In this document: piece by piece, positions 7,327 to 22,407 of the stretch
Layout: the number at the start of each line of letters is the position of its first letter
Position numbering within the stretch: the first letter of the stretch is position 1
Made by a program: the position numbers and the translations under genes
Source of the DNA: Archaeoglobaceae archaeon
GTDB lineage: Archaea > Halobacteriota > Archaeoglobi > Archaeoglobales > Archaeoglobaceae
Assembly (NCBI GenBank): GCA_046290005.1
Contig: JBKBUO010000002.1
Span: 1 to 43,338, forward strand
Direction: 5' to 3'
Length of the DNA stretch: 43,338 nucleotides
The notes under the pieces: model-generated
The model's input: the letters and a program-made list of their open reading frames with translations, nothing else
Told to the model about the DNA's origin: nothing
Database searches by the model: none

Positions 7327-7329
7327 CTC

Positions 7330-8613
7330 CTAAAAGAACAGGCCACTTTTACCATCCCAATCGTCCGGGGGATTTGTGCCTTTTCTACCCCATTTTCCTA
7401 TTACACCCTCTTTTTCAAGTTCTCTGAGCTCTTCCATACTCATGCCAAGGATTTTTATGAAGACGAATTCGTTGTCGAATCCTAAGGGTCTTGCAACCCA
7501 TTTTATTCTACCTGGCGTTTCTGACATCTTAACGGTCTGCACTTCTGCCAACTCACCCCATATATGGTCTTCAAAGATCCATATCGTTCTTCTACTTCTC
7601 AAATGCTCGTTTTCATATAAATCTTTGAAGTTAAGTACTTTATTAGTTGCAAAGCCGTATTTTTCAGCGACTTCTTCTATTTCCTTTGTTGTTTTGGTTA
7701 TGCAGAAATCTCTCAGCTTTTTATCGACCTCCTCCATGATATGATGTCTTTTAAGTGGATCTATGTATTCCTTGTATTCCTTTTCTTCCATATCCAGAGC
7801 TCTACATAGGCCCTCGAACTCCTTTTCTCTGTAAGCCACTATTGCGATAAATCCGTCTGAACATCTGTAAAGTCCAGATGGTAATATGGCAATGTCGCGA
7901 TTTCCAGTTCGTTCTCTATTTTTCCCAGTAAGTCCTACATATATCCACGTCCAATCTGACCATCTAATTGCGGTCTCGTTTTGCGAGATATCTATGTACT
8001 GCCCTTTTCCAGTTTTTTTTCTATAAATAAGCGCTACCATCACAGCTATAGCTCCGGTTATCGATGCAGCGAAGTCTAAAAGCCAAGCACCAAATTTGAT
8101 GGGTTCTCTCTCAGGAAATCCTGTGACATACATCATACCACTTTCCGCTTGCGCAGTAGCATCGTAAGAGACTCTTAGGGCGTTTCTACCCCATTGTCCG
8201 AAGCCTGAAAGTGAAAGGTATATAATATCAGGTTTAATTTCCCTTATTTGCCTATACCCTATTCCCCATGAGTCCGTTGTGCCGGGTCTGAAATTTTCTA
8301 TAACTACATCGCATCTCTTGGCAAGCTTGTATATTAGTTCCTTTCCCTTTGGGTTTCTCAGATCGATCGCAACATGTAGCTTGTTGTGATTCTGCTCCTC
8401 GAAGCCAGGTGAAAGCGTTTTATAATAGAAGAACCACGGTGTCACATATCTCATCACGTCTCCCACGCCTGGTAATTCGACTTTTATAACTTCTGCACCG
8501 AATTCAGCCAGAAAATCGGAAGCAGCGGGTCCAAGGACAACGTTTGTCATGTCTAAGATGCGAATACCTTCGAGAACTTCTGGTTTTAAACCTATTTCAT
8601 CTACCGGGACCAT
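7330..8613 (-). CDS. Family III (CaiB/BaiF) CoA-transferase
   Basis: GIRILDMTNVVLGPAASDFLAEFGAEVIKVELPG, the candidate catalytic Asp in AWLLDFAASITGAIAVMVAL, and GKGQYIDIS. Confidence 0.85.
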   Translation of the reverse strand: MVPVDEIGLKPEVLEGIRILDMTNVVLGPAASDFLAEFGAEVIKVELPGVGDVMRYVTPWFFYYKTLSPGFEEQNHNKLHVAIDLRNPKGKELIYKLAKRCDVVIENFRPGTTDSWGIGYRQIREIKPDIIYLSLSGFGQWGRNALRVSYDATAQAESGMMYVTGFPEREPIKFGAWLLDFAASITGAIAVMVALIYRKKTGKGQYIDISQNETAIRWSDWTWIYVGLTGKNRERTGNRDIAILPSGLYRCSDGFIAIVAYREKEFEGLCRALDMEEKEYKEYIDPLKRHHIMEEVDKKLRDFCITKTTKEIEEVAEKYGFATNKVLNFKDLYENEHLRSRRTIWIFEDHIWGELAEVQTVKMSETPGRIKWVARPLGFDNEFVFIKILGMSMEELRELEKEGVIGKWGRKGTNPPDDWDGKSGLFF

Positions 8614-8639
8614 AAAACCACTCTAAAAATTAATTTTTA

Positions 8640-10112
8640 TTATACTTCCATCGCAGCTTTAATCTCTGGCTCAATATCCTCTTCAGAAGCGGTCTTTGTG
8701 AAGAAGGAAACTACTATCATTACCAATATTGAGAGTAAAAGAGCAATGCTGTAGCTTGGTATTCCGTAAGGCATTTTCCACCCTATTCCTCTCTCCAATA
8801 TCAAGAACGAGATATTCAATATGAGACCCGTCATAAGAGCAGCAATTGCGGCCTCTTTCGTAGCTCTTTTCCAGTTCAAACCTAAACCTATGATTGGGAC
8901 GAGTGCACAGGCAAAATAACCCCAGCCTAATGTTCCAAGTATCGCTACAAGGTAGCCCCCATAGTAACCAAAGATCAAAGCTACTATAGATAGCAAGATT
9001 GTTACTACTCTACCCCATCTAATTTGTGCCTCTCTTGTAAGCTCTCTACCAATAGCTTTTGTAAAATCTCTAACAATTGCTGCGACACCAATTGCGAGGA
9101 ACGCACTCGAAGTCGACATTATCGCAGCCAATAGGCCTGCATAGACAAATCCAGATAACGCCGATGGAAGCTTGGTTAAAAACGCCGGAGCCGCTTCATC
9201 AGCAATTTTCAAAGGTGCGAGTTGTCCAGTTACAACAAACCAAAGCGCAGTATATCCAACAAAGATCCAGAGCAAGCTTGAAAGCATGTAACTGCCACCA
9301 CTTATAACTCCTCCCCATTTTAAATCTTGGAACCTTCGAAGTGCTATGAATTTCGTAGCGAGATGTGGTTGCCCCAAGTTACCAATGACGAAAACGAAAT
9401 ACCATATGAAGGCTAACATCCAAGTTCCAGTTCCTAAGGGATCGACTTTCACCGGATCCTTTAAAGCTATTGGTTCAAAAAGCCCACCAGTTCCTCCTGT
9501 GATAACCAGTGCAGCTATCAAAACTCCAATAGCTGCTATTAACATTACAATTCCCTGCATAACATCCGTCAATATGCTTGCGACCATCCCTGCTATGGCA
9601 GTATAAGTCATTGTGATTCCAAACACAATTAGTATTGCAGCTTCGAGAGGTATCCCCAACAACCCTGCAACCACGTATCCACCAGCCAATACTTGTGTGC
9701 CCAAGTATGCAAAAACTCCGAGTACAAGGCTTATAGCTAGTAGTCCTCTTACAGCTTCACTCTTAAATCTCAGAGCAGCTATGTCAGGCAAAGTGGCGAC
9801 AGGTTTTACTTCTGTGATTAGTCTGATTCTTTTCCCTATTATCCACCACGAGAAACCAAAAGCAGCGGCTTGAGCGAGGGTAATCCAGAGGGAGGTTGCA
9901 CCCATAGCATAGACTAAACCAGGACCACCTACAAAGCCGAATCCGCTCATTATTGCAGCAAAACTTGCAACTCCCACTATAAGTGGTCCAAAAAGTTTAT
10001 GGGCTCCGTAGTATTCTTCTGCCACCTTAACGTATTTTTTAGCATATACTCCCACTGCAAATGTCACGATGAAATAGCAGATTACTATCGCAACAATCAC
10101 GGGATCGCTCAT
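8640..10112 (-). CDS. Sodium:solute symporter family (SSF) transporter
   Basis: 490 aa with about 13 hydrophobic segments and Gly-rich SSF-like helices. Its start overlaps the stop of the upstream small membrane ORF (ATGA). Confidence 0.75.
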   Translation of the reverse strand: MSDPVIVAIVICYFIVTFAVGVYAKKYVKVAEEYYGAHKLFGPLIVGVASFAAIMSGFGFVGGPGLVYAMGATSLWITLAQAAAFGFSWWIIGKRIRLITEVKPVATLPDIAALRFKSEAVRGLLAISLVLGVFAYLGTQVLAGGYVVAGLLGIPLEAAILIVFGITMTYTAIAGMVASILTDVMQGIVMLIAAIGVLIAALVITGGTGGLFEPIALKDPVKVDPLGTGTWMLAFIWYFVFVIGNLGQPHLATKFIALRRFQDLKWGGVISGGSYMLSSLLWIFVGYTALWFVVTGQLAPLKIADEAAPAFLTKLPSALSGFVYAGLLAAIMSTSSAFLAIGVAAIVRDFTKAIGRELTREAQIRWGRVVTILLSIVALIFGYYGGYLVAILGTLGWGYFACALVPIIGLGLNWKRATKEAAIAALMTGLILNISFLILERGIGWKMPYGIPSYSIALLLSILVMIVVSFFTKTASEEDIEPEIKAAMEV

Positions 10113-10537
10113 TCTTTTACACCCCCTTTTGCCTCCTCAATTTTCTTTTTAAACTCTTCAAAAGCGGGCTCTATCAGCTTTTTGAACAAAATTGCGTAGC
10201 TAACTGTAGTAGCAATGTAAATCAATAGCCACATCACCGGGAAGAGTACAAAGAAACCTGGATGCATTCCAGCAATCCAAAAGTCGGGTATCTTCTTGTA
10301 AAAGAGAGCCCAATAGTGGAATATCAGTGAGAGGCAAATCACCCATATTAAAAGAGACAAGACCCCGATTATAATTGCCTCTTTCCTCCTTGAGTTCGAT
10401 GCACCAAGTATTAGCCAAAGCGAAAGGTTTACAGCCATCAAATAGCCAAATATCTGCCAATAGTTCAGCAACGCTACTATCACTAGCAAGAAAGAAGTTA
10501 TTCCGATTCCGAATACGAGTCCTTCTCTAAATTTCAT
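10109..10537 (-). CDS. Small 4-TM membrane protein, a putative symporter accessory subunit
   Basis: 142 aa and hydrophobic. It is translationally coupled (ATGA) to the SSF gene. I do not recognise a family. Confidence 0.5.
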   Translation of the reverse strand: MKFREGLVFGIGITSFLLVIVALLNYWQIFGYLMAVNLSLWLILGASNSRRKEAIIIGVLSLLIWVICLSLIFHYWALFYKKIPDFWIAGMHPGFFVLFPVMWLLIYIATTVSYAILFKKLIEPAFEEFKKKIEEAKGGVKE

Positions 10538-10600: not shown

Positions 10601-11305
10601 CTAATAAAAATTCATAGAAGTAGAAAGCTTCAAAACCTGGGGAAAGATCTTTTTCACCCCATTTCTCAATTTTCTCGAAACGTAACCCTTAGACAAGTTC
10701 AAATATGAAGATAGATCATCAAGTTTTACCTTCTTTGGGTCACAGAAATAGCCCAATTCAATTGCAAACTCCAAAATTTGTTTCTCGATCAGATCTAAGT
10801 TTTTGATAGAATTTATCAGCTCTACGATTAAAGAGATGTTGGATAAAACCAGGGAGAGATCTTCAGAACTTACGTAGTCTTTTCTCTTTATATAAAACTC
10901 GTGATTCTTATCTAACTCAGAAAGAGTATTTTCCAGAGATTCGTTGTCGTCGAATCCAATATGCCATATCTCTCTTCCCCTTCTGATAAAAAATGGTCCA
11001 ACTACGTATCCATTGTTCCTCTTTATTATATCCATTGCCTCTGTGAAGCGTATGGTCGTTTTGATCATTGCCCTACCTTTTTCCTTTTCTAAAACTTTTA
11101 AATCAATAAAATTTGGCTCCTCTTTAATTTCTCTCAGAGCTAAGTCGAGTTCTTCGGAATTTAACGCGTGAATGTATCCTCTATTTAGTAAGAGTTTGTC
11201 GGTAAAATCCCAAAAGGTCATATAGTATGTTACCTCCATCTTCTCCGAGCTTAATATGAACGGGCAATCTGGTTGGATCATGTCCAACACTACGATGTAG
11301 ACCAT
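10601..11305 (-). CDS. HTH_10 (bacterio-opsin-activator-type) transcriptional regulator
   Basis: The C-terminal EKQILEFAIELGYFCDPKKVKLDDLSSYLNLSKGYVSRKLRNGVKKI matches the HTH_10 helix-turn-helix. It is divergent from the ketone carboxylase operon. Confidence 0.7.
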   Translation of the reverse strand: MVYIVVLDMIQPDCPFILSSEKMEVTYYMTFWDFTDKLLLNRGYIHALNSEELDLALREIKEEPNFIDLKVLEKEKGRAMIKTTIRFTEAMDIIKRNNGYVVGPFFIRRGREIWHIGFDDNESLENTLSELDKNHEFYIKRKDYVSSEDLSLVLSNISLIVELINSIKNLDLIEKQILEFAIELGYFCDPKKVKLDDLSSYLNLSKGYVSRKLRNGVKKIFPQVLKLSTSMNFY

Positions 11306-11412: not shown

Positions 11413-11493
11413 ATGAGCATTCATGAGCAAATTTCATTCATGAGCAAATTTAACCCTAAAATTAATTATATTGCTCATATTTAAAGTTTAATT
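11413..11493. promoter_or_regulatory. Divergent promoter/operator region with ATGAGCA / TGCTCAT boxes around a TATA box
   Basis: Perfect tandem 17-mers cattcatgagcaaattt at 11418-11434 and 11435-11451. An 8-bp inverted repeat, atgagcaa (11440-11447) and ttgctcat (11471-11478), brackets the AT-rich aaaattaattatat. The ATG is at 11494. Confidence 0.55.
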
Positions 11494-13839
11494 ATGGGAA
11501 TAGGCCCCGGGGGTAGAACCCTTTTAGAACTTTTAGAAGAATCAGAAAAGCTTTATCGAGACACTGGGTTTTACTGGGGTTTAGGGAAGTTAGAACTCTA
11601 CGAAAAAGACCCTTTACGATGGGAGCGTGAAAGGGCACAACTCAAAGCTATAATGGTTTTAGCTCGAGAAGCTGCAACGCGAATAGCGGCTTCACCCATA
11701 ACAAGAAGCATAGGTGAAACCTGTTGGGTTCTCTACACACCTGAAGGCGATTCCGTTGTCTTATCCACTGGAATTATTGTGCACGTTCATACGATGAGTG
11801 AAGAAATAAAGTGGATGATTAGAAGAGGATACGAGGAGAATCCTGGAATAATGGACGGGGACCACTTCATTGGCAACGATCCAGCTCTTGGCAACGTGCA
11901 CACAACAGATGTCCACACTCTAACTCCTGTGTTTTATAGAGGAACTTTGATAGGGTGGATAGGTTCAGTGACGCACCAGGTGGACATAGGAGCAAATACA
12001 CCTGGACATGACATCTGCACATCTACTTCAAGATTTGAAGACGGACTATACATAGAGTGCGAATTGGTGATGAGAGATGGAAAACTTTTCCCACATTACT
12101 ATGAAAGAAGCCGAAGAGGTGTGAGAACCCCACTGTACTTCGATCTCGACGAGAAAGCAAGATTCGCTGGTAATGAGATGGCTAAAAGAATGGTATTGCA
12201 ATTTGTAGAGAAGGTGGGACTCAATTACTATATTCAACTGATAAGGGAGATCATAGAGAAGTCGAGAAGAGATTATTTGGCAAGAACAAAAGAGCGTCTC
12301 GTTCCTGGAAGATATCGAACTTTTACACTATCAGAAACTCCTTTTGTTCTGGAAGCCTGGCAACCTCACGCAAGAGATGACTGGTTACATCCATTACCGA
12401 TGGAGATTACGATCACAAGAGAAGGTCGCTGGATAGTAGATATTGAGGGTTCTACGGGTACAGGTCCATGGCCATGGAACGGAGCCATTTCACCTTTCAT
12501 GGGCGGATTTTGGGTGGTAATGACACAGATAATCGGTTATTCTGAAACTATAAACGAAGGGTTTGTCAAAGTCATAGATTTTAGAATACCCGAAAAGAGT
12601 TGGGTTGGAAATCCAGATCCCTATTTGTCGAGAAACGTCCCTTGGTATTTTCTCATACCACAGATGCAAGCTCTGTATAGAACCGTCGCGATGGGTGCAT
12701 TTGCGAGAGGGATAGTGGAAGAGGGAGCAGCAGGCTATGGGATGACCGCAGATCCTGTGCAAGGTGGGGGTGTTACAACAGGCAAAACTGGGCATCCTCC
12801 TGGGATTTACTACCCTATATCAACGTTTGAAATCGCTGGACAAGGATTAGGGGCTAATGCTATTAGAGATGGACTCGACTACGGTTATGCGATGTGGAAT
12901 CCAGAGGGGGACATAGGTGACGTTGAAGAGTGGGAAAGGATACAGGTTGGCTTTATTTACCTTGCGAGAAAAGTCAGACCAAACTCCGCAGGGTATGGTG
13001 AGAGAAGAGGAGGGAGTGGTTACGCACACGTTGCAATTTTCTTTGGAAGCAGAGACAATATACTTCAGAATCTCAACATGGGAAAAGCTTTTACAAATAC
13101 AGGACTCCACGGAGGCTATCCAACCCCTACCGTCTATACTCTGCTATCAAGGGGTGTAAAATTCGATGAATTGATTAAACAAAAGCTCCCTTATCCTATT
13201 TCTGACGACCCAGATAATCCTGAGTTCGAGAAACTCCTTTCGGGATTCTGCAGAGGAATAGAAAGGTTAGACTATGGAACTCATTTCCCTAGAGTTCTTG
13301 AAGAACACGATATCTATTACTTTAAGCAAAATGGTGGTCCAGGCTATGGCGATCCGTTGGATAGACCATTAGAGCTCTGTGAAAAAGATTTGAATGATGG
13401 AATTTATACTTCTGAGATCATGGAAAAAGTTTATGGAGTAGTTGCAAAGTACGATGGGGATAAAGGTGTATGGATCGTTGACAAAGAAGCTTCAGAAAAG
13501 CTTAGAAAGGAGAAGATCGATGAGAGACTTGGAAAAGCAAAAAATTTTGATCACTTCTATAGAGATGAGCGTGAAAAGATCATACGCTCCGACTTCATAA
13601 GACCCGTTGCAAGGATGTATCAGGAGCAAAGGGAAATATCCTCAAGGTTTTGGAGAGATTTCTTGGAGTTTTGGCAATTGCCTGAAGATTACATTCCAGA
13701 GGCTGAGGAACTCGATGAGTATCGAGAAAGAGTCCTAAGAAAACACGAGGAATTGATCGAGCGCTATAGAGAGTTTTTAGAGAAAAAAGGCTACGATTTG
13801 TCCAAGATTAGACATATAACCTTGAGAGAGAGGTGGTAG
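11494..13839 (+). CDS. Acetone carboxylase alpha-subunit-like protein (hydantoinase B / oxoprolinase family)
   Basis: 781 aa, the size and family of AcxB. It sits in an operon with a hydantoinase A-type subunit and a diagnostic acetone carboxylase gamma subunit. Confidence 0.75.
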   Translation: MGIGPGGRTLLELLEESEKLYRDTGFYWGLGKLELYEKDPLRWERERAQLKAIMVLAREAATRIAASPITRSIGETCWVLYTPEGDSVVLSTGIIVHVHTMSEEIKWMIRRGYEENPGIMDGDHFIGNDPALGNVHTTDVHTLTPVFYRGTLIGWIGSVTHQVDIGANTPGHDICTSTSRFEDGLYIECELVMRDGKLFPHYYERSRRGVRTPLYFDLDEKARFAGNEMAKRMVLQFVEKVGLNYYIQLIREIIEKSRRDYLARTKERLVPGRYRTFTLSETPFVLEAWQPHARDDWLHPLPMEITITREGRWIVDIEGSTGTGPWPWNGAISPFMGGFWVVMTQIIGYSETINEGFVKVIDFRIPEKSWVGNPDPYLSRNVPWYFLIPQMQALYRTVAMGAFARGIVEEGAAGYGMTADPVQGGGVTTGKTGHPPGIYYPISTFEIAGQGLGANAIRDGLDYGYAMWNPEGDIGDVEEWERIQVGFIYLARKVRPNSAGYGERRGGSGYAHVAIFFGSRDNILQNLNMGKAFTNTGLHGGYPTPTVYTLLSRGVKFDELIKQKLPYPISDDPDNPEFEKLLSGFCRGIERLDYGTHFPRVLEEHDIYYFKQNGGPGYGDPLDRPLELCEKDLNDGIYTSEIMEKVYGVVAKYDGDKGVWIVDKEASEKLRKEKIDERLGKAKNFDHFYRDEREKIIRSDFIRPVARMYQEQREISSRFWRDFLEFWQLPEDYIPEAEELDEYRERVLRKHEELIERYREFLEKKGYDLSKIRHITLRERW

Positions 13840-16070
13840 AATTGAAACCTGAACCTGTTGTTTTAGGTATCGACACTGGAGGAACGATGACAGATACTGT
13901 GCTTGTCGCAGAGGATGGAAGTTTTGTAATTGGAAAGGCACAAACGACTCCAGCTAACGAAGCTGAAGGTATAATAAATTCTTTGAAAAATGCAGTCGAA
14001 AAATGGGGACTTGAACTTGAAGAAGTTCTACCAGCCCTTAGAACCGTGGTTTACACGGGGACAATAATGCTCAACAGAGTCTTGGAAAGAAGAGGGTTGC
14101 ATCCTCTTGGAATAATAACGACTGCCGGATTTGAAGACACACTGCGAATGGGTAGATCAAGACAAGCTTGGAATACGCTGAGCTATGAAGAAAGATTACA
14201 TGCGATCTCACACTTTTATCCTGAGCCATTGGTTCCCAGAAACATGATAATAGGAGTAAGAGAGAGGACTTTACTAACGGGTGTCGAAATCGCTCCTCTG
14301 TATGAAAGAGATGTTGAAGAGGCTACGAGAACGTTGATAAAAAGAGGAGCTAAAGCAATAATCGTGATGTTTTTAAATTCTTGGGCGAATCCATCTCATG
14401 AAACCCAAGCTGAGCAAATTATAAAGAGAGTCTCAGCAGAGATTGGAAAAGACATACCCGTTTTCCTATCACACAAAATAGCCCCGGTTCTCGGCGAGCT
14501 TAGAAGATTGAATGCTGTTGTAATACAAGTGTATGCTTCAGAAGCTTCAAGAGAACAGTTTGCGAAGATAGAGAGCTCCTTTAGAGAGAAAAATTGTAAA
14601 GCCCCACTTTATATTCTTACGAACTATGGCACAGTCGTGCCTCCGACTTTTGAAAGGCTCATTCATACCGTAACCTCTGGACCAACAGGAGGGGCTGTGG
14701 GTGTTAAGACCCTCGCAGAGCTTTACGGATTCGAATATGTAATAGGTACTGACGTCGGAGGGACGAGCTTTGACGTAACTGCAATAATTGCTAGACAGCC
14801 AATAATGGCGCCCTATACAGTTGTTGAGAGATTTGAGGCCTCTGTGCCCTCTATAAAGACTGAGTCAATTGGAGCTGGGACGGGATCTTTTGTCAGAGTC
14901 GATCCAGTTACAAAGGCGGTGAAGATTGGGCCCCAGAGTGCTGGATATAGGATTGGGGTTTGTTGGGAAGAAGGGGGGATTGAGACTGTTACAATAAACG
15001 ATGCCATGCTCGTTTTAGGTTACTTAAATCCAGATTACTTCCTTGGTGGAGAAATAAAACTAAACAAGAAAAAAGCGGAAAAGGAATTTGAGAGACAAAT
15101 AGCGGAACCACTCGGAATAGAGTTAATTTCAGCTGCTTGGAACTCTTATACACTAGTTTCGGAGCGCATGAAACTACATTTAGAATCGATTGTGAGGTCT
15201 CTTGGACTCTCGCCTGAGAACTTCCATATAGTCTCCTATGGAGGTGGAGGTCCGAGCACAGTTGTTGCTTATACTTCTGGTCTGAAGTTTGCGGGTGTGA
15301 TGATACCTGAAATCGCTCCAGCTTTTTCCGCATGGGGTGCAACTCTGCCAGACTTAGGGATAAGAGTTGAAAAATCGGTAGAAGCTTATGTACCTCCACT
15401 TCCTGGGGTTAAGCCAATGGGTATCGCTGAAACGATAATGAAAGGAGTTGCAGAGCTTTTAGGGATAAAAATAAGAGGATTGAAAGAGATTGAGGGTCTA
15501 AGGAATCTCCTAGTTCAAAATGCTGTAAACGTATTATCTTCTGCATGGAAAGAGCTCCGTGGTTACGTCAGCGATGAGCTTAAAAGTGTAAGGGAAGAGG
15601 GGAGGGTAGAGTGGAAAGCCTCAGTTAGAATGCTTTACGCTGGAATGTTGGACGATATAGAAATCGATTCACCTTCTCTCGAAGCTGCAGAAGAACTTAT
15701 TAAAGAGCTTTGTGAGAGATTCGATGATTTATTCGAGAGAGTTTACGCGACTTCGGCAAGAAGTAGAGAGTTTGGATACACGATAACACGTGCGGTGGTT
15801 ACGGGTTATTTGAGAATGCCAAAACCAAGGATAAAGGAAGAGGCAGAAGTCGGATTAAAACCTTCGGGAGATGCTTTCAAGGGAGAAAGAGAAATCTTCT
15901 GGGAAGGTAAGTGGCATAACGCATCTATTTATGAAATGGGTAAATTAAAGGCAGGGAACTTAATCGAGGGACCTGCGGTCATCGAAGCGCCCGCTTCAAC
16001 ATTTGTAATCCCTCCGACAAACAAGGCTAAGCTTGATAAAAGGAGAATTTTCTGGCTGGAGGTGAGATGA
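13833..16070 (+). CDS. Acetone carboxylase beta-subunit-like protein (hydantoinase A family, ATP-binding)
   Basis: N-terminal VLGIDTGGTMTDTVLV and internal GTDVGGTSFDV are ASKHA-type motifs of hydantoinase A. The GTG start overlaps the upstream stop. Confidence 0.75.
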   Translation: MVELKPEPVVLGIDTGGTMTDTVLVAEDGSFVIGKAQTTPANEAEGIINSLKNAVEKWGLELEEVLPALRTVVYTGTIMLNRVLERRGLHPLGIITTAGFEDTLRMGRSRQAWNTLSYEERLHAISHFYPEPLVPRNMIIGVRERTLLTGVEIAPLYERDVEEATRTLIKRGAKAIIVMFLNSWANPSHETQAEQIIKRVSAEIGKDIPVFLSHKIAPVLGELRRLNAVVIQVYASEASREQFAKIESSFREKNCKAPLYILTNYGTVVPPTFERLIHTVTSGPTGGAVGVKTLAELYGFEYVIGTDVGGTSFDVTAIIARQPIMAPYTVVERFEASVPSIKTESIGAGTGSFVRVDPVTKAVKIGPQSAGYRIGVCWEEGGIETVTINDAMLVLGYLNPDYFLGGEIKLNKKKAEKEFERQIAEPLGIELISAAWNSYTLVSERMKLHLESIVRSLGLSPENFHIVSYGGGGPSTVVAYTSGLKFAGVMIPEIAPAFSAWGATLPDLGIRVEKSVEAYVPPLPGVKPMGIAETIMKGVAELLGIKIRGLKEIEGLRNLLVQNAVNVLSSAWKELRGYVSDELKSVREEGRVEWKASVRMLYAGMLDDIEIDSPSLEAAEELIKELCERFDDLFERVYATSARSREFGYTITRAVVTGYLRMPKPRIKEEAEVGLKPSGDAFKGEREIFWEGKWHNASIYEMGKLKAGNLIEGPAVIEAPASTFVIPPTNKAKLDKRRIFWLEVR

Positions 16071-16630
16071 TGTCAGAAGCTCTTGAAGCGAAAATAAAAG
16101 AGCTTGAGAGATTGCTCGAAAACAAGGCTGGCGAGAAAGAAATCTTTGAAGTGATAGTGAGAGAAAAAGATCCCGAGCTCAGCTTTGATGCAATCATTGA
16201 ATACTTCCAAAGAAGAGTAAGCTGGAAAGAAAGAATACTGATGCCAATCTCCAAACATCTCTTTATAGTGTGCAAGGATGGTAAACCCATAATAAAGGCT
16301 TTTTGCGGTTATGAGTTTGGAGATTACAGAGTTAATTGGAAGATCTTTGCAAAAGTTTTTATTAGAAGAAAAAAGGAGGAAATGGAGGAGATTTATCCGC
16401 ACTTTATGCACGGAGACCCGGATTGGGTTGAAATAAGGGAATACATCTGCCCGGGTTGTGGAAAACTACTTTCAGTCGAAGCAGTCCCACCTGGCTTTCC
16501 TCCGATTTTCGAATTTCTACCCGACATTGTGACTTTTTACGAGGATTGGCTTGGAAAAGAGTTTCCTTGTTCAAAAGTTGAGTTTAGAGACTTGACAGCG
16601 GAGGAAATCAGAAGGAGAATTAAAGTTTGA
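16067..16630 (+). CDS. Acetone carboxylase gamma subunit
   Basis: The motifs NWKIFAKVFIRR, EEIYPHFM, EIREYICPGCGKLLSVEAVPPGFPPIFEFLPDIVTFYEDWLG match the AcxC pattern as I remember it (NWKL..V.VR, EEIYP, IREY.CP.CG.L..VEA, PDI..FY.EWLG). There is an ATGA overlap with the beta subunit. Confidence 0.8.
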   Translation: MMSEALEAKIKELERLLENKAGEKEIFEVIVREKDPELSFDAIIEYFQRRVSWKERILMPISKHLFIVCKDGKPIIKAFCGYEFGDYRVNWKIFAKVFIRRKKEEMEEIYPHFMHGDPDWVEIREYICPGCGKLLSVEAVPPGFPPIFEFLPDIVTFYEDWLGKEFPCSKVEFRDLTAEEIRRRIKV

Positions 16631-17540: not shown

Positions 17541-17602
17541 ATGTGCATTATCAACCTTAAATTTTTAATATGTGCTCATATAAATTGGTTATTGGTGATA
17601 TT
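17541..17602 (+). promoter_or_regulatory. Promoter cassette P2: TATA plus a TGCTCAT box
   Basis: ttaaatttttaatatgtgctcat at 17557-17579. An upstream related box atgtgcat at 17541-17548 lies 31 nt from the proximal box. GGTGA precedes ATG 17603. Confidence 0.5.
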
Positions 17603-19267
17603 ATGCAGTTTGTGATAAAAGAAGAGGGCGAGCTAAATGGATGGCCCACGTATGCTTGGGCTGTAAAAAGATTGCCGAAAGAATTGGCTAAAACTGAGAC
17701 TGTAAAGGAAGTGCTTGAAACTGCATCTGAAATTCGTGGGGATAGAACTTACGCAATATACTCAGATACAGGAGAAAGCATGAGCTATTATGAGTTGAAC
17801 AGAGATGCGAACAAGATAGCGAACTCTCTTATGGAGCTTGGAGTTCAAAAAGGAGATAGAGTGGCGCTCTATTTGAGAAATTCTCTCGATTATCTCCGAT
17901 GCATTTATGCATGTTCAAAGATTGGTGCAATTGAGGTGCCGGTTAATTGGTTCTACCGAGAGTTCGATGCAAAACATGTTATAAAGAACAGTGAGGCGAG
18001 CGTTTGCATCGTAGAGGAAGATTTACTTCCGATTGTTGAGACCATAAGAGGTGATTTGCCTAATCTAAAGCATATTGCGGTTCGCGGAGAGGCAAAGGAG
18101 TATCAAAAACTTGAAGACTTAAAGGGAAGTTCGAAAAATCCTGAGACAAAGATCACAGCAGAGGATCCGATGGCGATAATATACACTTCTGGAACAACTG
18201 GGCTACCTAAAGGCGCCATCTTGTCAAATAAATCATATGTGTTGTCAGCTAAAGCGATCGCTTTGTGGATGGTCGATGAAAATGCGAACGACTACACTGG
18301 GTTACCGCTCTTCCACATAAATGCTCAGATATACTCAAGCCTTGGGATGATGATCGCAGGCGGAGTTTTGACACTCAGGAGTCTGTTCTCTGCGTCGATG
18401 TTTTGGGAAGACATAACTCGCTATAAATGCACGCATTTTAACCTTCTCGGCTCGCTTGCGAACATCCTGTATTCCTTACCACCTTCAGAATACGAAAAAG
18501 ACAATCCAGCAAAATATGTCATAATTGGTGGTATGCCAATAGAAATCTGGAAGAAATTCGAAGAGAGGTTCGGAGTAGAGGTTCTCGAAGGCTATAGCAT
18601 GACTGAAGACCCACTTCCGTGTCTCAATCCACCCGGGAAATACAAAAAGATAGGAAGCTTTGGCGTTCCAGTTTTCCCAGACTTGGGACACGATGCAAAG
18701 ATCGTTGACGATGCTGGCAACGAAGTTCCGTTTGGCAGCGTTGGCGAACTTGTGAGGAAGAATCCAGCGCAGATGATTGGTTATTACAAAGCACCTGAAA
18801 AGACTGCTGAAGTTGTGAAAGATGGTTGGCTTTTTAGCGGTGACTTCGCTAAAATGGACAACGAAGGGTATCTGTATTTCGTTGATAGGAAGAAGTTCAT
18901 CGTCCGCCGTAGTGGAGAGAACATAGCAAGCTGGGAGATCGAAGCTGTGCTTAAGAGTCATCCAAAAGTCGCAGACGCAGCAGTGATTCCTGTCCCAGAT
19001 CTGATTAGGGGTGAGGAGATAAAGGCATTTGTTATGCCGAAGTATGGAGAAGAGCTGAAAGAAGAAGAGTTGATCGAGTTTATGGCTGGAAAGGTTGCTT
19101 ATTTCAAGGTTCCAAGATATATAGAGCTCGTTGATTTCTTCCCTTACACGCCAACTGGTAGAGTTAAGAAATGGGAGTTGAAAGAAAAAGAGAAAGAAAG
19201 GGCTGACCATGGCTGGGACAGAGACAAGATGATTCCAGATTGGAGAACAAGATACAAGGCGAGGTGA
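17603..19267 (+). CDS. AMP-forming acyl-CoA synthetase
   Basis: AMP-binding motif IIYTSGTTGLPKGA and C-terminal PRYIELVDFFPYTPTGRVKK. I prefer ATG 17603 (GGTGA RBS) over the track start at 17570, which lies inside the promoter box. Confidence 0.85.
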   Translation: MQFVIKEEGELNGWPTYAWAVKRLPKELAKTETVKEVLETASEIRGDRTYAIYSDTGESMSYYELNRDANKIANSLMELGVQKGDRVALYLRNSLDYLRCIYACSKIGAIEVPVNWFYREFDAKHVIKNSEASVCIVEEDLLPIVETIRGDLPNLKHIAVRGEAKEYQKLEDLKGSSKNPETKITAEDPMAIIYTSGTTGLPKGAILSNKSYVLSAKAIALWMVDENANDYTGLPLFHINAQIYSSLGMMIAGGVLTLRSLFSASMFWEDITRYKCTHFNLLGSLANILYSLPPSEYEKDNPAKYVIIGGMPIEIWKKFEERFGVEVLEGYSMTEDPLPCLNPPGKYKKIGSFGVPVFPDLGHDAKIVDDAGNEVPFGSVGELVRKNPAQMIGYYKAPEKTAEVVKDGWLFSGDFAKMDNEGYLYFVDRKKFIVRRSGENIASWEIEAVLKSHPKVADAAVIPVPDLIRGEEIKAFVMPKYGEELKEEELIEFMAGKVAYFKVPRYIELVDFFPYTPTGRVKKWELKEKEKERADHGWDRDKMIPDWRTRYKAR

Positions 19268-20343
19268 GTTATCTGCGTGTTGCAATCATAGGGATTGGAT
19301 TTTCAGAGTTCGGCATACTCAACGAACCCTTCTACAACACTTCGTTTTTGGCAGCAAGGGAAGCGATAGGAGATGCGTCCATAGAAAGGGGAGAAATAGA
19401 CAGCTTTGTCCTTGGAGGCTATGATAGTCTCGGCGTAGGGAGAACAATAGCGAACATGTATACAGCCCCGGCTGCAGGAGCTTATCTCAGACACGAGATC
19501 AGAGTAACCGATGATTCAGCATTTGCGCTTGCTTTAGCGTTTATGCGAGTAAAGAGTGGTTTGAGCGATATATGCATGGTCTTAGGATTTGGGAAAAGCT
19601 CTGAAACTCCAGTTGAGCTTGTTGAACTGCAGAGTCTTGATCCATTCTTTTCACGCCCTTTAAACTTGTCTCTTCAGATGAGCTTTGCAATGCAGAGCTT
19701 TTGTTATCGCAGGAAGTATGGAATTGATGATGAAAAGATTGCGGAATGCGTTGCTAAAGACACTGAGAACGGCTCTAAAAATCCAAGGGCTTTTTTAAGA
19801 AAAAAGATAAGCGTTGAGGACGTTTTGAACTCAAAAATGGCGGTTTATCCGTTGAGAGAACTCGAAATTGCCAAGTGGTGCGATGGAAGTGTGGCGTTGA
19901 TTTTAGCAAGCGAGACAATCGCAAAAAGGATTTGTGAGAGACCAGTTTGGATAAAAGGCGTTGGTTGGAGCAACTCTGGCTATTATTTCGATGAATTAGA
20001 TTCGCTTCCGGCAACGAAACTCTCTGCAGATATGGCTTTCAAGATGGCAGGAGTTGAAAGAAGAGAAGTTGAAGCGGTTGAAGCAATGGACCTCGTAAGT
20101 GATCACCAGCCAATGATTCTCGAAGCCTTAGGTTTTGCAGAAAAAGGAAAGGGTCTTGATGTGAATGTAGAAGTTAACAAATCAGGCGGTGCTATTTGCA
20201 CGAATGTCTACGGTTCCACTGGGCTCTTTCTCATTGCGAATCTCATTGAAAGGATAAGGAGCGGTGAAATCGGCATCGGCGTAGCGCAGGCTATGAGTGG
20301 TTACGCTGGGCAGAGGGCTTGTGTTTCCGTTTTTGGTGTGTAG
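19264..20343 (+). CDS. Thiolase-fold (SCP-x type) protein, subunit type A, without the canonical catalytic Cys/His
   Basis: RVAIIGIGFSEFG at the N-terminus, CDGSVALILASE, VNKSGGAICTNVYGSTG. The nucleophile loop reads RVTDDSAFALALAFMRVKSG, with no Cys. I propose the GTG start at 19264, which overlaps the upstream TGA. Confidence 0.75.
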   Translation: MSYLRVAIIGIGFSEFGILNEPFYNTSFLAAREAIGDASIERGEIDSFVLGGYDSLGVGRTIANMYTAPAAGAYLRHEIRVTDDSAFALALAFMRVKSGLSDICMVLGFGKSSETPVELVELQSLDPFFSRPLNLSLQMSFAMQSFCYRRKYGIDDEKIAECVAKDTENGSKNPRAFLRKKISVEDVLNSKMAVYPLRELEIAKWCDGSVALILASETIAKRICERPVWIKGVGWSNSGYYFDELDSLPATKLSADMAFKMAGVERREVEAVEAMDLVSDHQPMILEALGFAEKGKGLDVNVEVNKSGGAICTNVYGSTGLFLIANLIERIRSGEIGIGVAQAMSGYAGQRACVSVFGV

Positions 20344-20345
20344 AG

Positions 20346-21503
20346 ATGAAGAGAGTTGCGATTGTTGGTTGTGGGCAAACGGAGTTCAAAACCAAGCACA
20401 AGAAAACGCATCCCGAAATCGTATACGAAGCTGTAAAGAGAGCCCTTGACCATGCTGGACTCGACATAAAAGACATTGAAGCTGTTGTTTATGGCTGCAT
20501 GGATCCATTTGATGGAATTTATCGCCCTGAACTGTGGGATTCCACCGCTACTGGTATTTTCAAGCCGATGATGAAGATAAGCACAGGAGGGACCACAGGA
20601 CTAACGACTGCGCTCGCTGCTTACGAAACAGTAGCAAGCGGTCTTTTCGATGTTGTAATGGCTGTTTGCGTTCAACGTGTTGGCGAGTGCGCAGATGCGC
20701 AATCCGTGCTAAACACCGCAGTAGATCCAATATACGAACGTTTCTCAGGTGTCGGAGCAATTACAGCATCGGCGTTTCAGGCTACCGCTTATATGCATAA
20801 GTACAACGCTACCGAAGAAGATTTAGCCTATGTTAGCGTAAAAGATCACGAGAATGCTCTGAAAAATCCATATGCTCATATAAAAATGAGAGTAAGCATA
20901 GAAGATGTTTTGAAAAGTCCAGTTATATGCTCTCCGCTGAAGTTGCTCGAATGTTGTCCAAGAAGCGATGGCGCCGCTACTATTATTTTTGCAAGTGAAG
21001 AAGTTGCAAAAAAACTGAGAGATAATCCCGCATGGATTCTTGGAGAGACAACGATAAGCGACAGCTATTACTTGGGAGTTCGCCCAGACTTCAGCTTTTG
21101 GGATTCCCTAAGCATTGCGGGAAGAAGACTCTATAGAGCAGTTGGGATTGATAATTCAATGAAAGATTTTGATGTTGCAGAACTATATTCTGCTTTTACA
21201 ATTCAAGAAGTCTTAGAACTTGAAGCCCTCGGGTTTGCAAAAGAGGGACAGGGCAAGGATTTTGCTAAGGAAGGGATAACAGCTGTTGATGGCGAAATGC
21301 CAACGAATCCATCGGGAGGAGTTCTCTGCACAAACCCCATAGGAGCAAGCGGGCTTGTAAGACTAATAGAGGCTTCGCTTCAAGTCATGAGAGAGGCGAG
21401 CAACCAAGTCGAAAATGCTGAAGTTGCACTGGCTCATGCTTGGGGAGGGACCTTGCAGTTCCATACTCTTGTGGTCGTTTCTTCAAAAAAGAGGTTGAGG
21501 TGA
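20346..21503 (+). CDS. Thiolase-fold (SCP-x type) protein, subunit type B, without the canonical catalytic Cys/His
   Basis: MKRVAIVGCGQTEF, CCPRSDGAATIIFASEE, NPSGGVLCTNPIGASG. The nucleophile loop reads ISTGGTTGLTTALAAYETVASG, with Gly in place of Cys. Confidence 0.8.
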   Translation: MKRVAIVGCGQTEFKTKHKKTHPEIVYEAVKRALDHAGLDIKDIEAVVYGCMDPFDGIYRPELWDSTATGIFKPMMKISTGGTTGLTTALAAYETVASGLFDVVMAVCVQRVGECADAQSVLNTAVDPIYERFSGVGAITASAFQATAYMHKYNATEEDLAYVSVKDHENALKNPYAHIKMRVSIEDVLKSPVICSPLKLLECCPRSDGAATIIFASEEVAKKLRDNPAWILGETTISDSYYLGVRPDFSFWDSLSIAGRRLYRAVGIDNSMKDFDVAELYSAFTIQEVLELEALGFAKEGQGKDFAKEGITAVDGEMPTNPSGGVLCTNPIGASGLVRLIEASLQVMREASNQVENAEVALAHAWGGTLQFHTLVVVSSKKRLR

Positions 21504-21964: not shown

Positions 21965-22407
21965 TGGAGGTTCTATATTTTGAGGAATTCGAAGTGGGAA
22001 GGGAATTCGAAACTGCTGGAAGAACGATTACAGAAGCGGACATAGTTAACTTTGCGGGTATTACTGGTGATTGGAATCAACTTCATACAGACGCTGAATT
22101 CGCAAAAAATACGATCTTTGGTCAGAGAATAGCACATGGAGCACTTGTATTTTCCATAATGACAGGACTACTTGTGAGACTTGGTTTCATCGAAAAAACG
22201 ATCATCGCATTTTATGGAATCGACAAACTGCGTTTCACGAACCCAGTTTTCATAGGTGACACAATAAAGGCGGTTGCCAAGGTTACTGAGAAAGAGGATA
22301 GGAGAGCATACGGAGTCGTTACTATTGAGTCAAGAGTCGTTAAACAAACTGGCGATGTTGTGCTCAAGTGCGTTTTAAAGGTGGCGGTTAAAAAGAAGGG
22401 TGAGTAG
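21964..22407 (+). CDS. MaoC-like (R)-specific enoyl-CoA hydratase (hot-dog fold)
   Basis: The hydratase 2 motif FAGITGDWNQLHTDAEFA. The start overlaps the DUF35 stop (TGATG). Confidence 0.85.
   Translation: MEVLYFEEFEVGREFETAGRTITEADIVNFAGITGDWNQLHTDAEFAKNTIFGQRIAHGALVFSIMTGLLVRLGFIEKTIIAFYGIDKLRFTNPVFIGDTIKAVAKVTEKEDRRAYGVVTIESRVVKQTGDVVLKCVLKVAVKKKGE

What the first reader, a model, noticed from the sequence alone, without database searches (positions are those of the whole stretch)
11494..16630. Acetone-carboxylase-type alpha/beta/gamma ATP-dependent ketone carboxylase in an archaeal acyl-CoA island
Seen in the sequence: a 781-aa hydantoinase-B-type ORF, a 745-aa hydantoinase-A-type ORF and a 187-aa ORF are joined by overlapping stops and starts.

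The small ORF has the characteristic acetone carboxylase gamma pattern: NWK..A.V..R, EEIYP, IREYICPGCGKLLSVEA, PDIVTFYEDWLG. This separates ketone carboxylases from hydantoinases, oxoprolinases and caprolactamases, which lack this subunit.

The gene order is alpha-beta-gamma, whereas bacterial acx operons, as I remember them, are acxA(beta)-acxB(alpha)-acxC(gamma). The first Cys pair of the bacterial gamma Zn site appears reduced (AFCGYE).

I am not aware of a biochemically characterised archaeal ketone carboxylase. The neighbours are CoA-transferases and acyl-CoA ligases, which could activate the 3-oxoacid product.
Basis: partly seen in the sequence, partly recalled or inferred. Interest (0 to 1): 0.65.

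Follow-up and report, generated by a model that had tools for sequence, protein, structure and literature searches.

The report
Archaeal acetone-carboxylase-type ketone carboxylase operon
A hot-spring archaeon carries an intact three-gene enzyme of the acetone carboxylase family, which uses ATP to join CO2 to a small ketone, from a thermophile branch never studied biochemically; in related archaea its genes sit beside genes that probably break down methyl-branched fatty acids.

Summary
Three translationally coupled ORFs encode a hydantoinase-B-type alpha, a hydantoinase-A-type beta and a PF08882 gamma subunit. Each matches solved Xanthobacter acetone carboxylase far better than acetophenone carboxylase, oxoprolinase or caprolactamase. 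All four Mn ligands of alpha are kept.

The alpha-beta-gamma gene order is real. It marks one well-supported clade: Archaeoglobi, Thermoproteota, Hadarchaeales and thermophilic Firmicutes. Asgard archaea, Dehalococcoidia and Xanthobacter keep beta-alpha-gamma.

The "reduced" first Cys of the gamma zinc site is also real, but it covaries perfectly with a new Cys nine residues upstream. Three sequences from the clade's deeper branch carry both. This suggests a ligand that moved, not a lost site.

In relatives from two archaeal phyla the operon adjoins an equivalog-level acetoacetate-CoA ligase. It also adjoins the same module found 1 kb downstream here: a cysteine-less thiolase-like pair, DUF35, MaoC hydratase and acyl-CoA dehydrogenase. 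A conserved promoter element (TGCTCAT) links these operons in the window.

Best reading: a genuine acetone or small-methyl-ketone carboxylase feeding acetoacetate. It may replace biotin-dependent methylcrotonyl-CoA carboxylase in branched-chain catabolism. Pipelines already name these genes, so the enzyme is a new member of a known kind; the pathway link is the interesting, untested part.

The parts
11494..13839 (+). Alpha subunit (781 aa, hydantoinase-B type). It holds the predicted Mn/Fe carboxylation site: E75, H136, D139, H161.
   Evidence: PF02538, E 6e-73. 498 bits to acetone carboxylase alpha chains 5m45_A and 5svb_A, aligned over residues 2-740. 37% identity to XaAC, and all four metal ligands conserved.
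13833..16070 (+). Beta subunit (745 aa, hydantoinase-A / ASKHA type). Predicted site of ATP binding and substrate phosphorylation.
   Evidence: Three Pfam domains: Hydant_A_N, Hydantoinase_A and Hydant_A_C. 577 bits to acetone carboxylase beta 5svb_B. The GIDTGGTMTD and DVGGTSFDV motifs align with the XaAC motifs.
16067..16630 (+). Gamma subunit (187 aa, zinc-ribbon / Yippee-like). Candidate Zn ligands are C69, C80, C128 and C131; A78 replaces the canonical first Cys.
   Evidence: PF08882, E 1.9e-36. 126 bits to 5m45_C. Covariation of C69 with A/S78 in 39 of 39 full-length sequences. A T-rich run follows the stop codon.
11413..11478 (.). Divergent promoter/operator region. It holds three ATGAGCA copies (11413, 11423, 11440), a TATA-like box, and TGCTCAT at 11472-11478, 16 nt before the alpha ATG.
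   Evidence: Read directly from the sequence. TGCTCAT follows a TATA-like box at the same distance from the alpha start in six orthologous Archaeoglobaceae loci.
10601..11305 (-). Divergently transcribed HTH_10 / HVO_2525_N-type transcription regulator. It is the candidate binder of the TGCTCAT operator (inferred).
   Evidence: PF04967 and PF24279. An orthologue sits in the same position in L007.
6004..10537 (-). Divergent operon: a small membrane protein (10109-10537), a sodium:solute symporter (8640-10112) and two family III CoA-transferases (7330-8613 and 6004-7326). These are candidates for substrate uptake and for CoA activation of the 3-oxoacid.
   Evidence: PF00474 and PF02515. The same four genes lie upstream of the carboxylase in L007. 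In a bacterial sister clade, CoA_transf_3 genes follow gamma directly.
17570..25481 (+). Module 1 operon: ligase Lig1, thiolase-like pair ThlA1/ThlB1 (no catalytic Cys or His), DUF35, MaoC hydratase, acyl-CoA dehydrogenase, ligase Lig2. Proposed source of the ketone or of acetoacetate.
   Evidence: Pfam. ThlB1 has Thr where the nucleophilic Cys sits and Asn where the His sits when aligned with thiolase 7yvy_A. Orthologous modules lie next to the carboxylase genes in L006, L010, L012, L015, L087 and L089. The promoter carries TATA plus TGCTCAT at 17573.
25523..29474 (+). Module 2: an AF_0136-like gene, DUF35, a second thiolase-like pair and DUF35. It shares the promoter element (TGCTCAT at 26119).
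   Evidence: Pfam. The same string follows module 1 in L087, and it lies directly upstream of the carboxylase in L008. Motif.

Best explanation
The three genes encode a functional (alpha-beta-gamma)2-type, biotin-independent, ATP-dependent ketone carboxylase of the acetone carboxylase family.

**Mechanism, by homology with the Xanthobacter enzyme (inferred).**
- Beta binds ATP and phosphorylates both the enolised ketone and bicarbonate.
- The two intermediates travel through an internal channel to the Mn/Fe site in alpha (E75, H136, D139, H161).
- There they combine into a 3-oxoacid.
- Gamma is a structural zinc-ribbon clamp. Its first zinc ligand has moved from position 78 to Cys69.

**Substrate and product.** The most likely substrate is acetone, or a similarly small methyl ketone such as butanone, and the product is acetoacetate. 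Related archaea activate that product with an adjacent acetoacetate-CoA ligase. In this genome the activating enzyme is presumably Lig1 or the family III CoA-transferases.

**Regulation.** The operon belongs to one regulon, marked by the TGCTCAT operator, together with two operons for cysteine-less thiolase-like/DUF35 lyases, a MaoC hydratase and an acyl-CoA dehydrogenase. The carboxylase therefore serves catabolism of beta-branched acyl-CoA, not a stand-alone solvent-degradation trait.

**Shown versus inferred.**
- Shown: family membership, intact catalytic residues, clade, synteny and the shared promoter motif.
- Inferred: substrate, ATP stoichiometry and the metabolic link.
For: - **Family.** Pfam and PDB matches for all three subunits are far stronger to acetone carboxylase than to any other family member.
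- **Catalytic residues.** The Mn ligands are conserved in the window, and two of the four (H150, D153) are invariant across all 83 aligned homologues (E89 is Glu in 73 and Asp in 9; H175 is His in 80). The ASKHA phosphate-binding motifs are conserved.
- **Operon integrity.** The reading frames are intact and translationally coupled.
- **Acetoacetate-CoA ligase next door.** It scores 672-690 bits on TIGR01217 against a cut-off of 521. It lies beside the carboxylase genes in Saccharolobus caldissimus, in Caldisphaera (three loci), in a Thermoproteota MAG and in two Archaeoglobi loci, with a 45%-identical homologue in an Actinomycetota MAG. S. caldissimus and the actinobacterium have it without any thiolase-like module.
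- **Regulator in a relative.** A Kyrpidia member of the same clade has a sigma-54 MimR_N-type activator upstream, as bacterial acetone operons do.
- **Module 1 synteny.** Module 1 lies next to the carboxylase in six loci from two phyla, in three different arrangements.
- **L087.** This locus has the window's whole 17.5-29.5 kb gene string divergent from the carboxylase, with acetoacetate-CoA ligase in the position of Lig1.
- **Promoter.** TATA plus TGCTCAT is conserved at six orthologous promoters and recurs at the window's module 1 and module 2 promoters.
Against: - No member of this clade has been assayed. XaAC lies outside the 69-sequence clade that holds the window and shares only 37% identity with alpha.
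- This window has no acetoacetate-CoA ligase within 43 kb. A medium/long-chain-type ligase sits in its place, which could mean a different 3-oxoacid.
- Three or four close relatives have the carboxylase operon with no relevant neighbour: L001, L009, L088.
- Four module 1 loci chosen without regard to the carboxylase have none within 10 kb. The coupling is therefore facultative.
- The route is costly in ATP: AMP-forming carboxylation followed by AMP-forming ligation. That is a heavy cost for an anaerobe.
- There are no expression data.
Confidence: 0.7

Rival explanations
1. The enzyme carboxylates longer or isoprenoid methyl ketones rather than acetone. In this reading, 3-methyl-branched acyl-CoAs (for example phytanoyl-type chains from archaeal lipids) are dehydrogenated, hydrated and cleaved by the thiolase-like lyases. 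The products are acetyl-CoA and a long 2-alkanone. The carboxylase converts that ketone into a 3-oxoacid, and Lig1 activates it for further beta-oxidation.
For: - In the window and in L007 the acetoacetate-CoA ligase position is held by a medium/long-chain-type ligase.
- The island has five such ligases, two lyase-like modules and a 3-hydroxyacyl-CoA dehydrogenase / enoyl-CoA hydratase fusion.
- From my own memory, not found in the library: Rontani and co-workers proposed anaerobic carboxylation of 6,10,14-trimethylpentadecan-2-one in denitrifying bacteria.
Against: - Alpha is 81% identical to the L087 enzyme, which is paired with acetoacetate-CoA ligase.
- All characterised family members take small ketones. 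The known mechanism passes intermediates along a roughly 40 Å internal channel (PMC5543143), which is hard to reconcile with C18 ketones.
- Most relatives carry the acetoacetate-specific ligase.
Confidence: 0.15
2. The carboxylase is a genuine acetone carboxylase, but the acetone does not come from the neighbouring lyase module. It comes either from the environment or from spontaneous thermal decarboxylation of free acetoacetate. In this reading the enzyme merely converges with module 1 at the acetoacetate / acetoacetate-CoA ligase node, as a salvage or assimilation role.
For: - Acetoacetate-CoA ligase is embedded in module 1 operons that have no carboxylase nearby: A. neptunius L091 and L094. 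So the module itself seems to need acetoacetate activation.
- Stand-alone carboxylase operons exist (L001, L009, L088).
- The clade is rich in thermophiles, for which acetoacetate is unstable. This point rests on general chemistry and is an inference.
Against: - The adjacency recurs in two phyla, and the operator is shared. That argues for more than a loose convergence.
- ACAD, MaoC and a DUF35-bound cysteine-less thiolase-fold enzyme are, in steroid degraders, exactly the trio that releases a ketone (PMC12329534, PMC12502768).
Confidence: 0.25
3. The complex is not a carboxylase. It is instead an ATP-dependent hydrolase of the same superfamily (hydantoinase, 5-oxoprolinase or caprolactamase type) that happens to carry a gamma-like subunit.
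For: - NCBI's pipeline names the alpha homologues only "hydantoinase B/oxoprolinase family protein".
- NCBIfam gave only sub-threshold hits, to the acetophenone carboxylase and caprolactamase models.
Against: - Matches to solved oxoprolinase, hydantoinase and caprolactamase are ten-fold or more weaker than to acetone carboxylase.
- A full-length PF08882 gamma subunit is present.
- The acetone carboxylase metal site is intact.
- The neighbours are acyl-CoA enzymes, not genes of amino acid or lactam metabolism.
Confidence: 0.03

Closest known systems
Acetone carboxylase AcxABC of Xanthobacter autotrophicus Py2 (PDB 5SVB, 5SVC, 5M45), with the Aromatoleum aromaticum and Rhodobacter capsulatus enzymes
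   Same: - Three subunits of the same Pfam families.
- End-to-end alignment of all three subunits.
- Mn/Fe ligands E89, H150, D153 and H175 conserved.
- ASKHA ATP-binding motifs conserved.
- Gamma zinc ribbon with three of the four Cys in place.
- The product-activating enzyme lies beside the operon in relatives.
   Different: - Alpha shares only 37% identity.
- XaAC lies outside the clade that holds the window.
- The gene order is alpha-beta-gamma instead of beta-alpha-gamma.
- The first zinc ligand has moved (C69 in place of C78).
- The divergent regulator is HTH_10-type rather than sigma-54 AcxR.
- The host is a hot-spring archaeon.
- The operon is embedded in a branched acyl-CoA catabolic island.
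Acetophenone carboxylase ApcABCDE of Aromatoleum aromaticum EbN1 (PDB 5L9W)
   Same: It belongs to the same superfamily and also has a small zinc-binding subunit related to gamma. It carries out ATP-dependent carboxylation of a methyl ketone.
   Different: - Apc has two hydantoinase-A paralogues plus an extra epsilon subunit, and it hydrolyses two ATP to ADP (PMC5214803 abstract).
- The window has a single hydantoinase-A gene.
- The window scores much lower against Apc: 133 vs 498 bits for alpha and 28 vs 126 bits for gamma.
Steroid side-chain trio: ChsE1-ChsE2 (ACAD), ChsH1-ChsH2 or Shy (MaoC hydratase with DUF35), and Ltp2 or Sal (thiolase-fold aldolase)
   Same: The neighbouring module 1 has the same parts: an ACAD, a MaoC hydratase, a DUF35 protein and thiolase-fold proteins without the thiolase nucleophile. 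In steroid degraders this trio turns a beta-branched acyl-CoA into a ketone or aldehyde plus a short acyl-CoA (PMC12329534, PMC12502768).
   Different: - Here there is a heteropair of thiolase-like proteins and a free-standing DUF35.
- No steroid genes are present.
- The catalytic residues of the archaeal pair were not established here.
- In archaea the module sits next to a ketone carboxylase and an acetoacetate-CoA ligase.
Canonical leucine/isovalerate (Liu) pathway: isovaleryl-CoA dehydrogenase, biotin-dependent 3-methylcrotonyl-CoA carboxylase, methylglutaconyl-CoA hydratase, HMG-CoA lyase
   Same: The proposed net conversion is the same: isovaleryl-CoA plus CO2 gives acetyl-CoA plus acetoacetate. 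The enzyme classes also match: dehydrogenase, hydratase, C-C lyase, ATP-dependent carboxylase, then acetoacetate activation.
   Different: No biotin enzyme lies in the cluster. Carboxylation would follow C-C cleavage rather than precede it, and free acetone would be an intermediate. All of this is inferred and none of it is shown.

Membership tests
Acetone carboxylase (AcxABC) family | Three subunits: hydantoinase-B-type alpha, hydantoinase-A-type beta, and a small gamma of Pfam PF08882 | tested here: met
   PF02538; PF05378 + PF01968 + PF19278; and PF08882 at 125 bits, full length.
Acetone carboxylase (AcxABC) family | Metal (Mn/Fe) ligands of alpha: Glu89, His150, Asp153, His175 (XaAC numbering, PMC5543143) | tested here: met
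   the window has E75, H136, D139 and H161. Among 83 homologues, His150 and Asp153 are invariant, position 89 is Glu in 73 and Asp in 9, and position 175 is His in 80.
Acetone carboxylase (AcxABC) family | Nucleotide-binding ASKHA motifs in beta | tested here: met
   alignment: GIDTGGTMTD aligns with GIDAGGTMTD, and DVGGTSFDV with DIGGTSFDV. The match covers 10-521 and 563-742 at 577 bits.
Acetone carboxylase (AcxABC) family | Four-Cys zinc site in gamma (Cys74, Cys76, Cys124, Cys127) | tested here: inconclusive
   - The Cys74 equivalent is Ala78; the other three Cys are kept.
- A clade-specific Cys69 covaries perfectly with the loss: 39 of 39 full-length sequences.
- Three sequences from the clade's deeper branch carry both Cys.
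- The geometry could not be checked, because the tools give no model coordinates.
Acetone carboxylase (AcxABC) family | Closer to characterised acetone carboxylase than to acetophenone carboxylase, oxoprolinase, hydantoinase or caprolactamase | tested here: met
   alpha scores 498 vs 133, 49 and 44 bits; beta 577 vs 347, 232 and 179; gamma 126 vs 28. In the tree, XaAC is sister to the 69-row clade that holds the window, and a CoA-transferase-linked clade lies further out.
Acetone carboxylase (AcxABC) family | Operon order acxA (beta) - acxB (alpha) - acxC (gamma) | tested here: not met
   The window and every locus of its 30-row clade for which I hold DNA read alpha-beta-gamma. Asgard, Dehalococcoidia and Myxococcota loci, and Xanthobacter, read beta-alpha-gamma. 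Gene order does not define function.
Acetone carboxylase (AcxABC) family | ATP (to AMP + 2 Pi) and bicarbonate-dependent carboxylation of acetone to acetoacetate | not testable with these tools
   This needs an enzyme assay. Indirect support: an acetoacetate-CoA ligase above the equivalog cut-off lies next to the operon in the two relatives I scanned, and its 62-98%-identical orthologues lie next to it in five further loci.
Acetophenone carboxylase (Apc) type | Two hydantoinase-A paralogues (alpha, alpha') plus an epsilon subunit in the operon | tested here: not met
   The operon has one hydantoinase-A gene only. The NCBIfam Apc equivalogs score 27-363 bits against cut-offs of 250-1500.
Two-subunit hydantoinase / 5-oxoprolinase / caprolactamase (HyuAB, OplAB, CapAB) | An A+B enzyme without a gamma subunit, scoring above the family model cut-offs | tested here: not met
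   A gamma subunit is present and translationally coupled. CapA and CapB score 331 and 57 bits against cut-offs of 1000.

The most novel reading that the evidence does not exclude
The carboxylase is the CO2-capturing step of an undescribed, biotin-independent archaeal route for beta-methyl-branched acyl-CoAs. The substrates would be isovaleryl-CoA from leucine and possibly isoprenoid acids from archaeal lipids.

**Proposed steps.**
1. ACAD and the MaoC hydratase make a tertiary 3-hydroxy-3-methylacyl-CoA.
2. The cysteine-less thiolase-like pair with DUF35 cleaves it by a retro-aldol reaction into acetyl-CoA plus acetone (or a methyl ketone).
3. The carboxylase re-fixes the volatile ketone to acetoacetate.
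4. A ligase returns the acetoacetate to CoA metabolism.

The acetone carboxylase would thus do the job of methylcrotonyl-CoA carboxylase, but after C-C cleavage instead of before it.
Probability: 0.3. Interest if true: 0.8.

Novelty: new member of a known kind. Interest (0 to 1): 0.5.

Why it matters
- **An unstudied branch of a rare enzyme type.** Acetone carboxylases are among the few biotin-free enzymes that form a C-C bond from bicarbonate. All studied examples are from mesophilic Proteobacteria. This locus belongs to a distinct, thermophile-rich clade that is widespread in archaea, has never been assayed, and could yield a heat-stable version.
- **Small evolutionary markers.** The clade-defining gene inversion and the moved zinc ligand are tidy markers of this branch.
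- **A concrete, testable pathway hypothesis.** The conserved pairing with an acetoacetate-CoA ligase and a steroid-aldolase-like module suggests that some archaea degrade leucine-type or isoprenoid-type branched chains through free acetone, without methylcrotonyl-CoA carboxylase. If true, it would fill a gap in archaeal branched-chain and lipid catabolism and would add a biological source and sink of acetone in hot springs.

Tried and rejected
**Tools unavailable or without data**
I could not test genome-wide co-occurrence of the carboxylase with methylcrotonyl-CoA carboxylase, HMG-CoA lyase or acetoacetate-CoA ligase. I also could not search the window's own genome for that ligase.
- Only DNA runs from a hot-spring metagenome hold the sequence, so there is no expression evidence.

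**Searches that came back empty or uninformative**
- NCBIfam gave only sub-threshold acetophenone carboxylase and caprolactamase hits for the three subunits.
- I looked for a decayed acetoacetate-CoA ligase in the 0.9 kb gap after gamma and across the whole window. tblastn found only distant matches to the ordinary ligases.
- I tested whether the module 1 ACAD is specifically isovaleryl-CoA-dehydrogenase-like. It is not: 161 bits to IVD against 184 to a generic Thermus ACAD.
- Literature searches found nothing linking acetone carboxylase with isovaleryl-CoA or leucine, and nothing on cleavage of 3-hydroxyisovaleryl-CoA to acetone. The isoprenoid-ketone carboxylation papers I remember are not in the library.

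**A test that weakened my idea**
- Four ThlA1 orthologue loci, chosen without regard to the carboxylase, have no carboxylase within 10 kb, though two contain acetoacetate-CoA ligase. I therefore dropped the idea that the coupling is obligate.
The absence of cultured Archaeoglobus species from its list is not evidence that they lack the enzyme.

**Not attempted**
- Structure prediction would not return coordinates, so it could not test the Cys69 relocation.

Full report
**Observation**

The window holds three same-strand ORFs at 11494-13839 (781 aa), 13833-16070 (745 aa, GTG start) and 16067-16630 (187 aa).
- Alpha and beta overlap by 7 nt (GTGGTAG). Beta and gamma overlap by 4 nt (ATGA). Purine-rich ribosome-binding-like stretches precede both starts, and a T-run follows the gamma stop.
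- Pfam assigns them to Hydantoinase_B; to Hydant_A_N, Hydantoinase_A and Hydant_A_C; and to Acetone_carb_G. The gamma match is PF08882 at E 1.9e-36, covering the full model.

**Family assignment**

Scores against all solved structures:

| Subunit | Xanthobacter acetone carboxylase (5SVB/5M45) | Acetophenone carboxylase | Others |
|---|---|---|---|
| alpha | 498 bits | 133 | under 50 (N-methylhydantoinase, hydantoinase) |
| beta | 577 bits | 347 | 232 (oxoprolinase) |
| gamma | 126 bits | 28 | none |

- NCBIfam holds no model that these proteins pass. Only the acetophenone carboxylase and caprolactamase equivalogs hit, far below their cut-offs.
- I rebuilt the XaAC alpha and gamma sequences from the printed alignments and checked that their numbering matches the structure paper (PMC5543143).
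- The four Mn ligands Glu89, His150, Asp153 and His175 correspond to window E75, H136, D139 and H161. Across 83 homologues, two of the four (His150, Asp153) are invariant; position 89 is Glu in 73 and Asp in 9, and position 175 is His in 80.
- The two ASKHA phosphate-binding motifs of beta are conserved.
- Window alpha is 37% identical to XaAC alpha.

**Distribution and phylogeny**

- The nearest relatives are Archaeoglobaceae MAGs from hot springs and subsurface fluids (72-87% gamma identity), followed by Caldisphaera, other Thermoproteota and Saccharolobus caldissimus (60-71%).
- Further out, at about 50%, come many Asgard archaea, Dehalococcoidia, Myxococcota and Acidimicrobiia.
- In a maximum-likelihood tree of 83 alpha subunits, the window sits in a 30-sequence clade with SH-aLRT support of 99. 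That clade contains Archaeoglobi, Thermoproteota, Hadarchaeales, thermophilic Firmicutes (Kyrpidia, Thermaerobacter, Sulfoacidibacillus) and a few Actinomycetota.
- Its sister clade, with support of 100, is Asgard plus Dehalococcoidia.
- XaAC branches outside both. A CoA-transferase-linked bacterial clade lies further out.
- Only one characterised enzyme could be included, and it sits on a long branch. Its exact placement is therefore tentative.

**Gene order**

- Every locus of the 30-sequence clade for which I hold DNA reads alpha-beta-gamma.
- Every Asgard, Dehalococcoidia, Myxococcota and Acidimicrobiia locus reads beta-alpha-gamma, as does Xanthobacter acxA-acxB-acxC.
The order marks a clade rather than a single genome.

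**Gamma zinc site**

- XaAC binds zinc through Cys74, Cys76, Cys124 and Cys127. In the window these positions are Ala78, Cys80, Cys128 and Cys131.
- Among 134 gamma sequences, all 39 full-length ones with Ala or Ser at position 78 have a Cys at position 69.
- Sequences that keep Cys78 have Ser, Ala, Gln, Glu and other residues at position 69.
- Three members of the clade's deeper branch (L017, L018, L020) have both Cys.
- This pattern suggests a ligand that moved through a five-Cys intermediate. I read the site as retained, but I could not check its geometry.

**Genomic context in the window**

- Upstream, on the opposite strand: an HTH_10 regulator, a small membrane protein, a sodium:solute symporter and two family III CoA-transferases.
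- Downstream, module 1: a ligase (Lig1), two thiolase-like proteins, DUF35, a MaoC hydratase, an acyl-CoA dehydrogenase and a second ligase.
- Then module 2: an AF_0136-like gene, DUF35, a second thiolase-like pair and DUF35.
- Then more ligases and a 3-hydroxyacyl-CoA dehydrogenase / enoyl-CoA hydratase fusion.
- ThlB1 has Thr and Asn where thiolases have the nucleophilic Cys and the catalytic His. This agrees with earlier notes on this genome.

**Context in relatives**

- A ligase lies beside the carboxylase genes in S. caldissimus (L003), Caldisphaera (L006, L012, L089), a Thermoproteota MAG (L015) and two Archaeoglobi loci (L010, L087). The L006 and L003 copies pass the NCBIfam equivalog cut-off for acetoacetate-CoA ligase: TIGR01217 at 672-690 bits against 521, and NF002937 at 826-856 against 639. 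The rest were identified as their 62-98%-identical orthologues by tblastn.
- A 45%-identical homologue lies beside them in an Actinomycetota MAG (L019).
- Module 1 orthologues (ThlA1-ThlB1-DUF35, ACAD, MaoC) adjoin the carboxylase in L006, L010, L012, L015, L087 and L089. They occur in three different arrangements. Module 2 adjoins it in L008.
- L087, from a 770 kb Archaeoglobaceae contig, carries this string, transcribed divergently from alpha-beta-gamma: acetoacetate-CoA ligase, ThlA1, ThlB1, DUF35, MaoC, ACAD, AF_0136-like, DUF35, ThlA2, ThlB2, DUF35.
  - This is the window's own gene string, with the acetoacetate ligase in place of Lig1 and without Lig2.
- A Kyrpidia locus has a sigma-54 MimR_N-type activator upstream.
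- Three close relatives (L001, L009, L088) have the carboxylase with no relevant neighbours.

**Reverse test**

I fetched four ThlA1 orthologue loci chosen without regard to the carboxylase. They include the cultured Archaeoglobus neptunius.
- None has the carboxylase within 10 kb.
- Two have acetoacetate-CoA ligase inside the module 1 operon.

The link is therefore recurrent but facultative, and acetoacetate activation belongs to the module as much as to the carboxylase.

**Regulation**

- A TATA-like box followed by TGCTCAT lies 16 nt upstream of the alpha start. Three inverted copies (ATGAGCA) lie further upstream.
- The same TATA-plus-TGCTCAT arrangement occurs at the heads of module 1 (17573) and module 2 (26119). 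These account for three of the four plus-strand occurrences in the window.
- The element sits at the same place in six orthologous Archaeoglobaceae carboxylase promoters and is absent from the Thermoproteota ones.
- This supports a common regulon. That the adjacent HTH_10 protein is the binder is an inference.

**Interpretation**

- The enzyme is a genuine member of the acetone carboxylase family, and it most likely turns acetone or another small methyl ketone into acetoacetate.
- In steroid degraders, an ACAD, a MaoC hydratase and a DUF35-bound thiolase-fold aldolase release a ketone or aldehyde plus a short acyl-CoA from a branched side chain (PMC12329534, PMC12502768).
- By analogy, module 1 could convert isovaleryl-CoA, via 3-hydroxyisovaleryl-CoA, into acetyl-CoA and acetone. 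The carboxylase and the ligase would then recover the acetone. That would be a biotin-free equivalent of the methylcrotonyl-CoA carboxylase / HMG-CoA lyase route.
- Alternatively, the module yields acetoacetate directly, and the carboxylase assimilates or salvages acetone at the same node.
- In this window the acetoacetate ligase is missing and a longer-chain-type ligase takes its place. This leaves room for a longer ketone.
- None of these metabolic steps is shown.

**Novelty**

- Pipelines already label homologues as acetone carboxylase subunits.
- I found no biochemical study of an archaeal member and no paper connecting the enzyme with branched-chain catabolism.
- A recent reconstruction of leucine catabolism in a thermophilic archaeon assumes the canonical biotin route (PMC12979851).

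I rate the enzyme a new member of a known kind. The pathway link is the part worth testing.

Noticed in passing
window 16650-17530: About 0.88 kb between gamma and Lig1 has no counterpart in the closest relative L007, where the same two genes are about 180 bp apart. It is not a decayed acetoacetate-CoA ligase.
   Followed up: partly
window 17570-17605: The listed ATG start of Lig1 (17570) lies inside the TATA/TGCTCAT promoter element. The real start is probably the next Met (MQFV..., about 17603).
   Followed up: no
L091 (Archaeoglobus neptunius) 2789-12687 and L094: In these Archaeoglobi, module 1 is arranged as ligase, acetoacetate-CoA ligase, MaoC, ACAD, ligase, ThlA1, ThlB1, DUF35, with no carboxylase within 10 kb. 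L094 also has an acetoacetate-decarboxylase-family (PF06314) gene about 10 kb downstream.
   Followed up: partly
L038, L044, L049, L069, L070, L081, L085: In a bacterial clade (Myxococcota, Dehalococcoidia, Desulfurellales), two or three family III CoA-transferase genes follow the gamma gene directly. This parallels the CoA-transferase pair upstream of the window operon.
   Followed up: no
L061, L075, L080 (Acidimicrobiia), about 16600-18400: A second gamma-like match lies inside a long ORF just after a thiolase-like gene, about 6 kb downstream of the first carboxylase operon. It may be a second system, a fusion, or an artefact of long ORFs in high-GC DNA.
   Followed up: no
L016: A 4.8 kb contig binned as 'Thermotogae bacterium' carries an alpha-beta-gamma operon that nests among the archaeal sequences. 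This is either mis-binning or a recent transfer.
   Followed up: no
L007 2608-4080: The orthologue of the sodium:solute symporter in the closest relative is split into three ORF pieces. It is either a pseudogene or contains assembly errors.
   Followed up: no
L003 (Saccharolobus caldissimus) 10723-13883: Directly downstream of gamma lie aconitase-like large and small subunits, an isocitrate-lyase / PEP-mutase family gene and an HbpS-like gene. This looks like a methylcitrate- or citramalate-type set.
   Followed up: no
window 4005-5333: An archaeal-type PEP carboxylase (PF14010) ends the minus-strand gene string that starts with the symporter and the CoA-transferases. Its relation to the island is unknown.
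   Followed up: no
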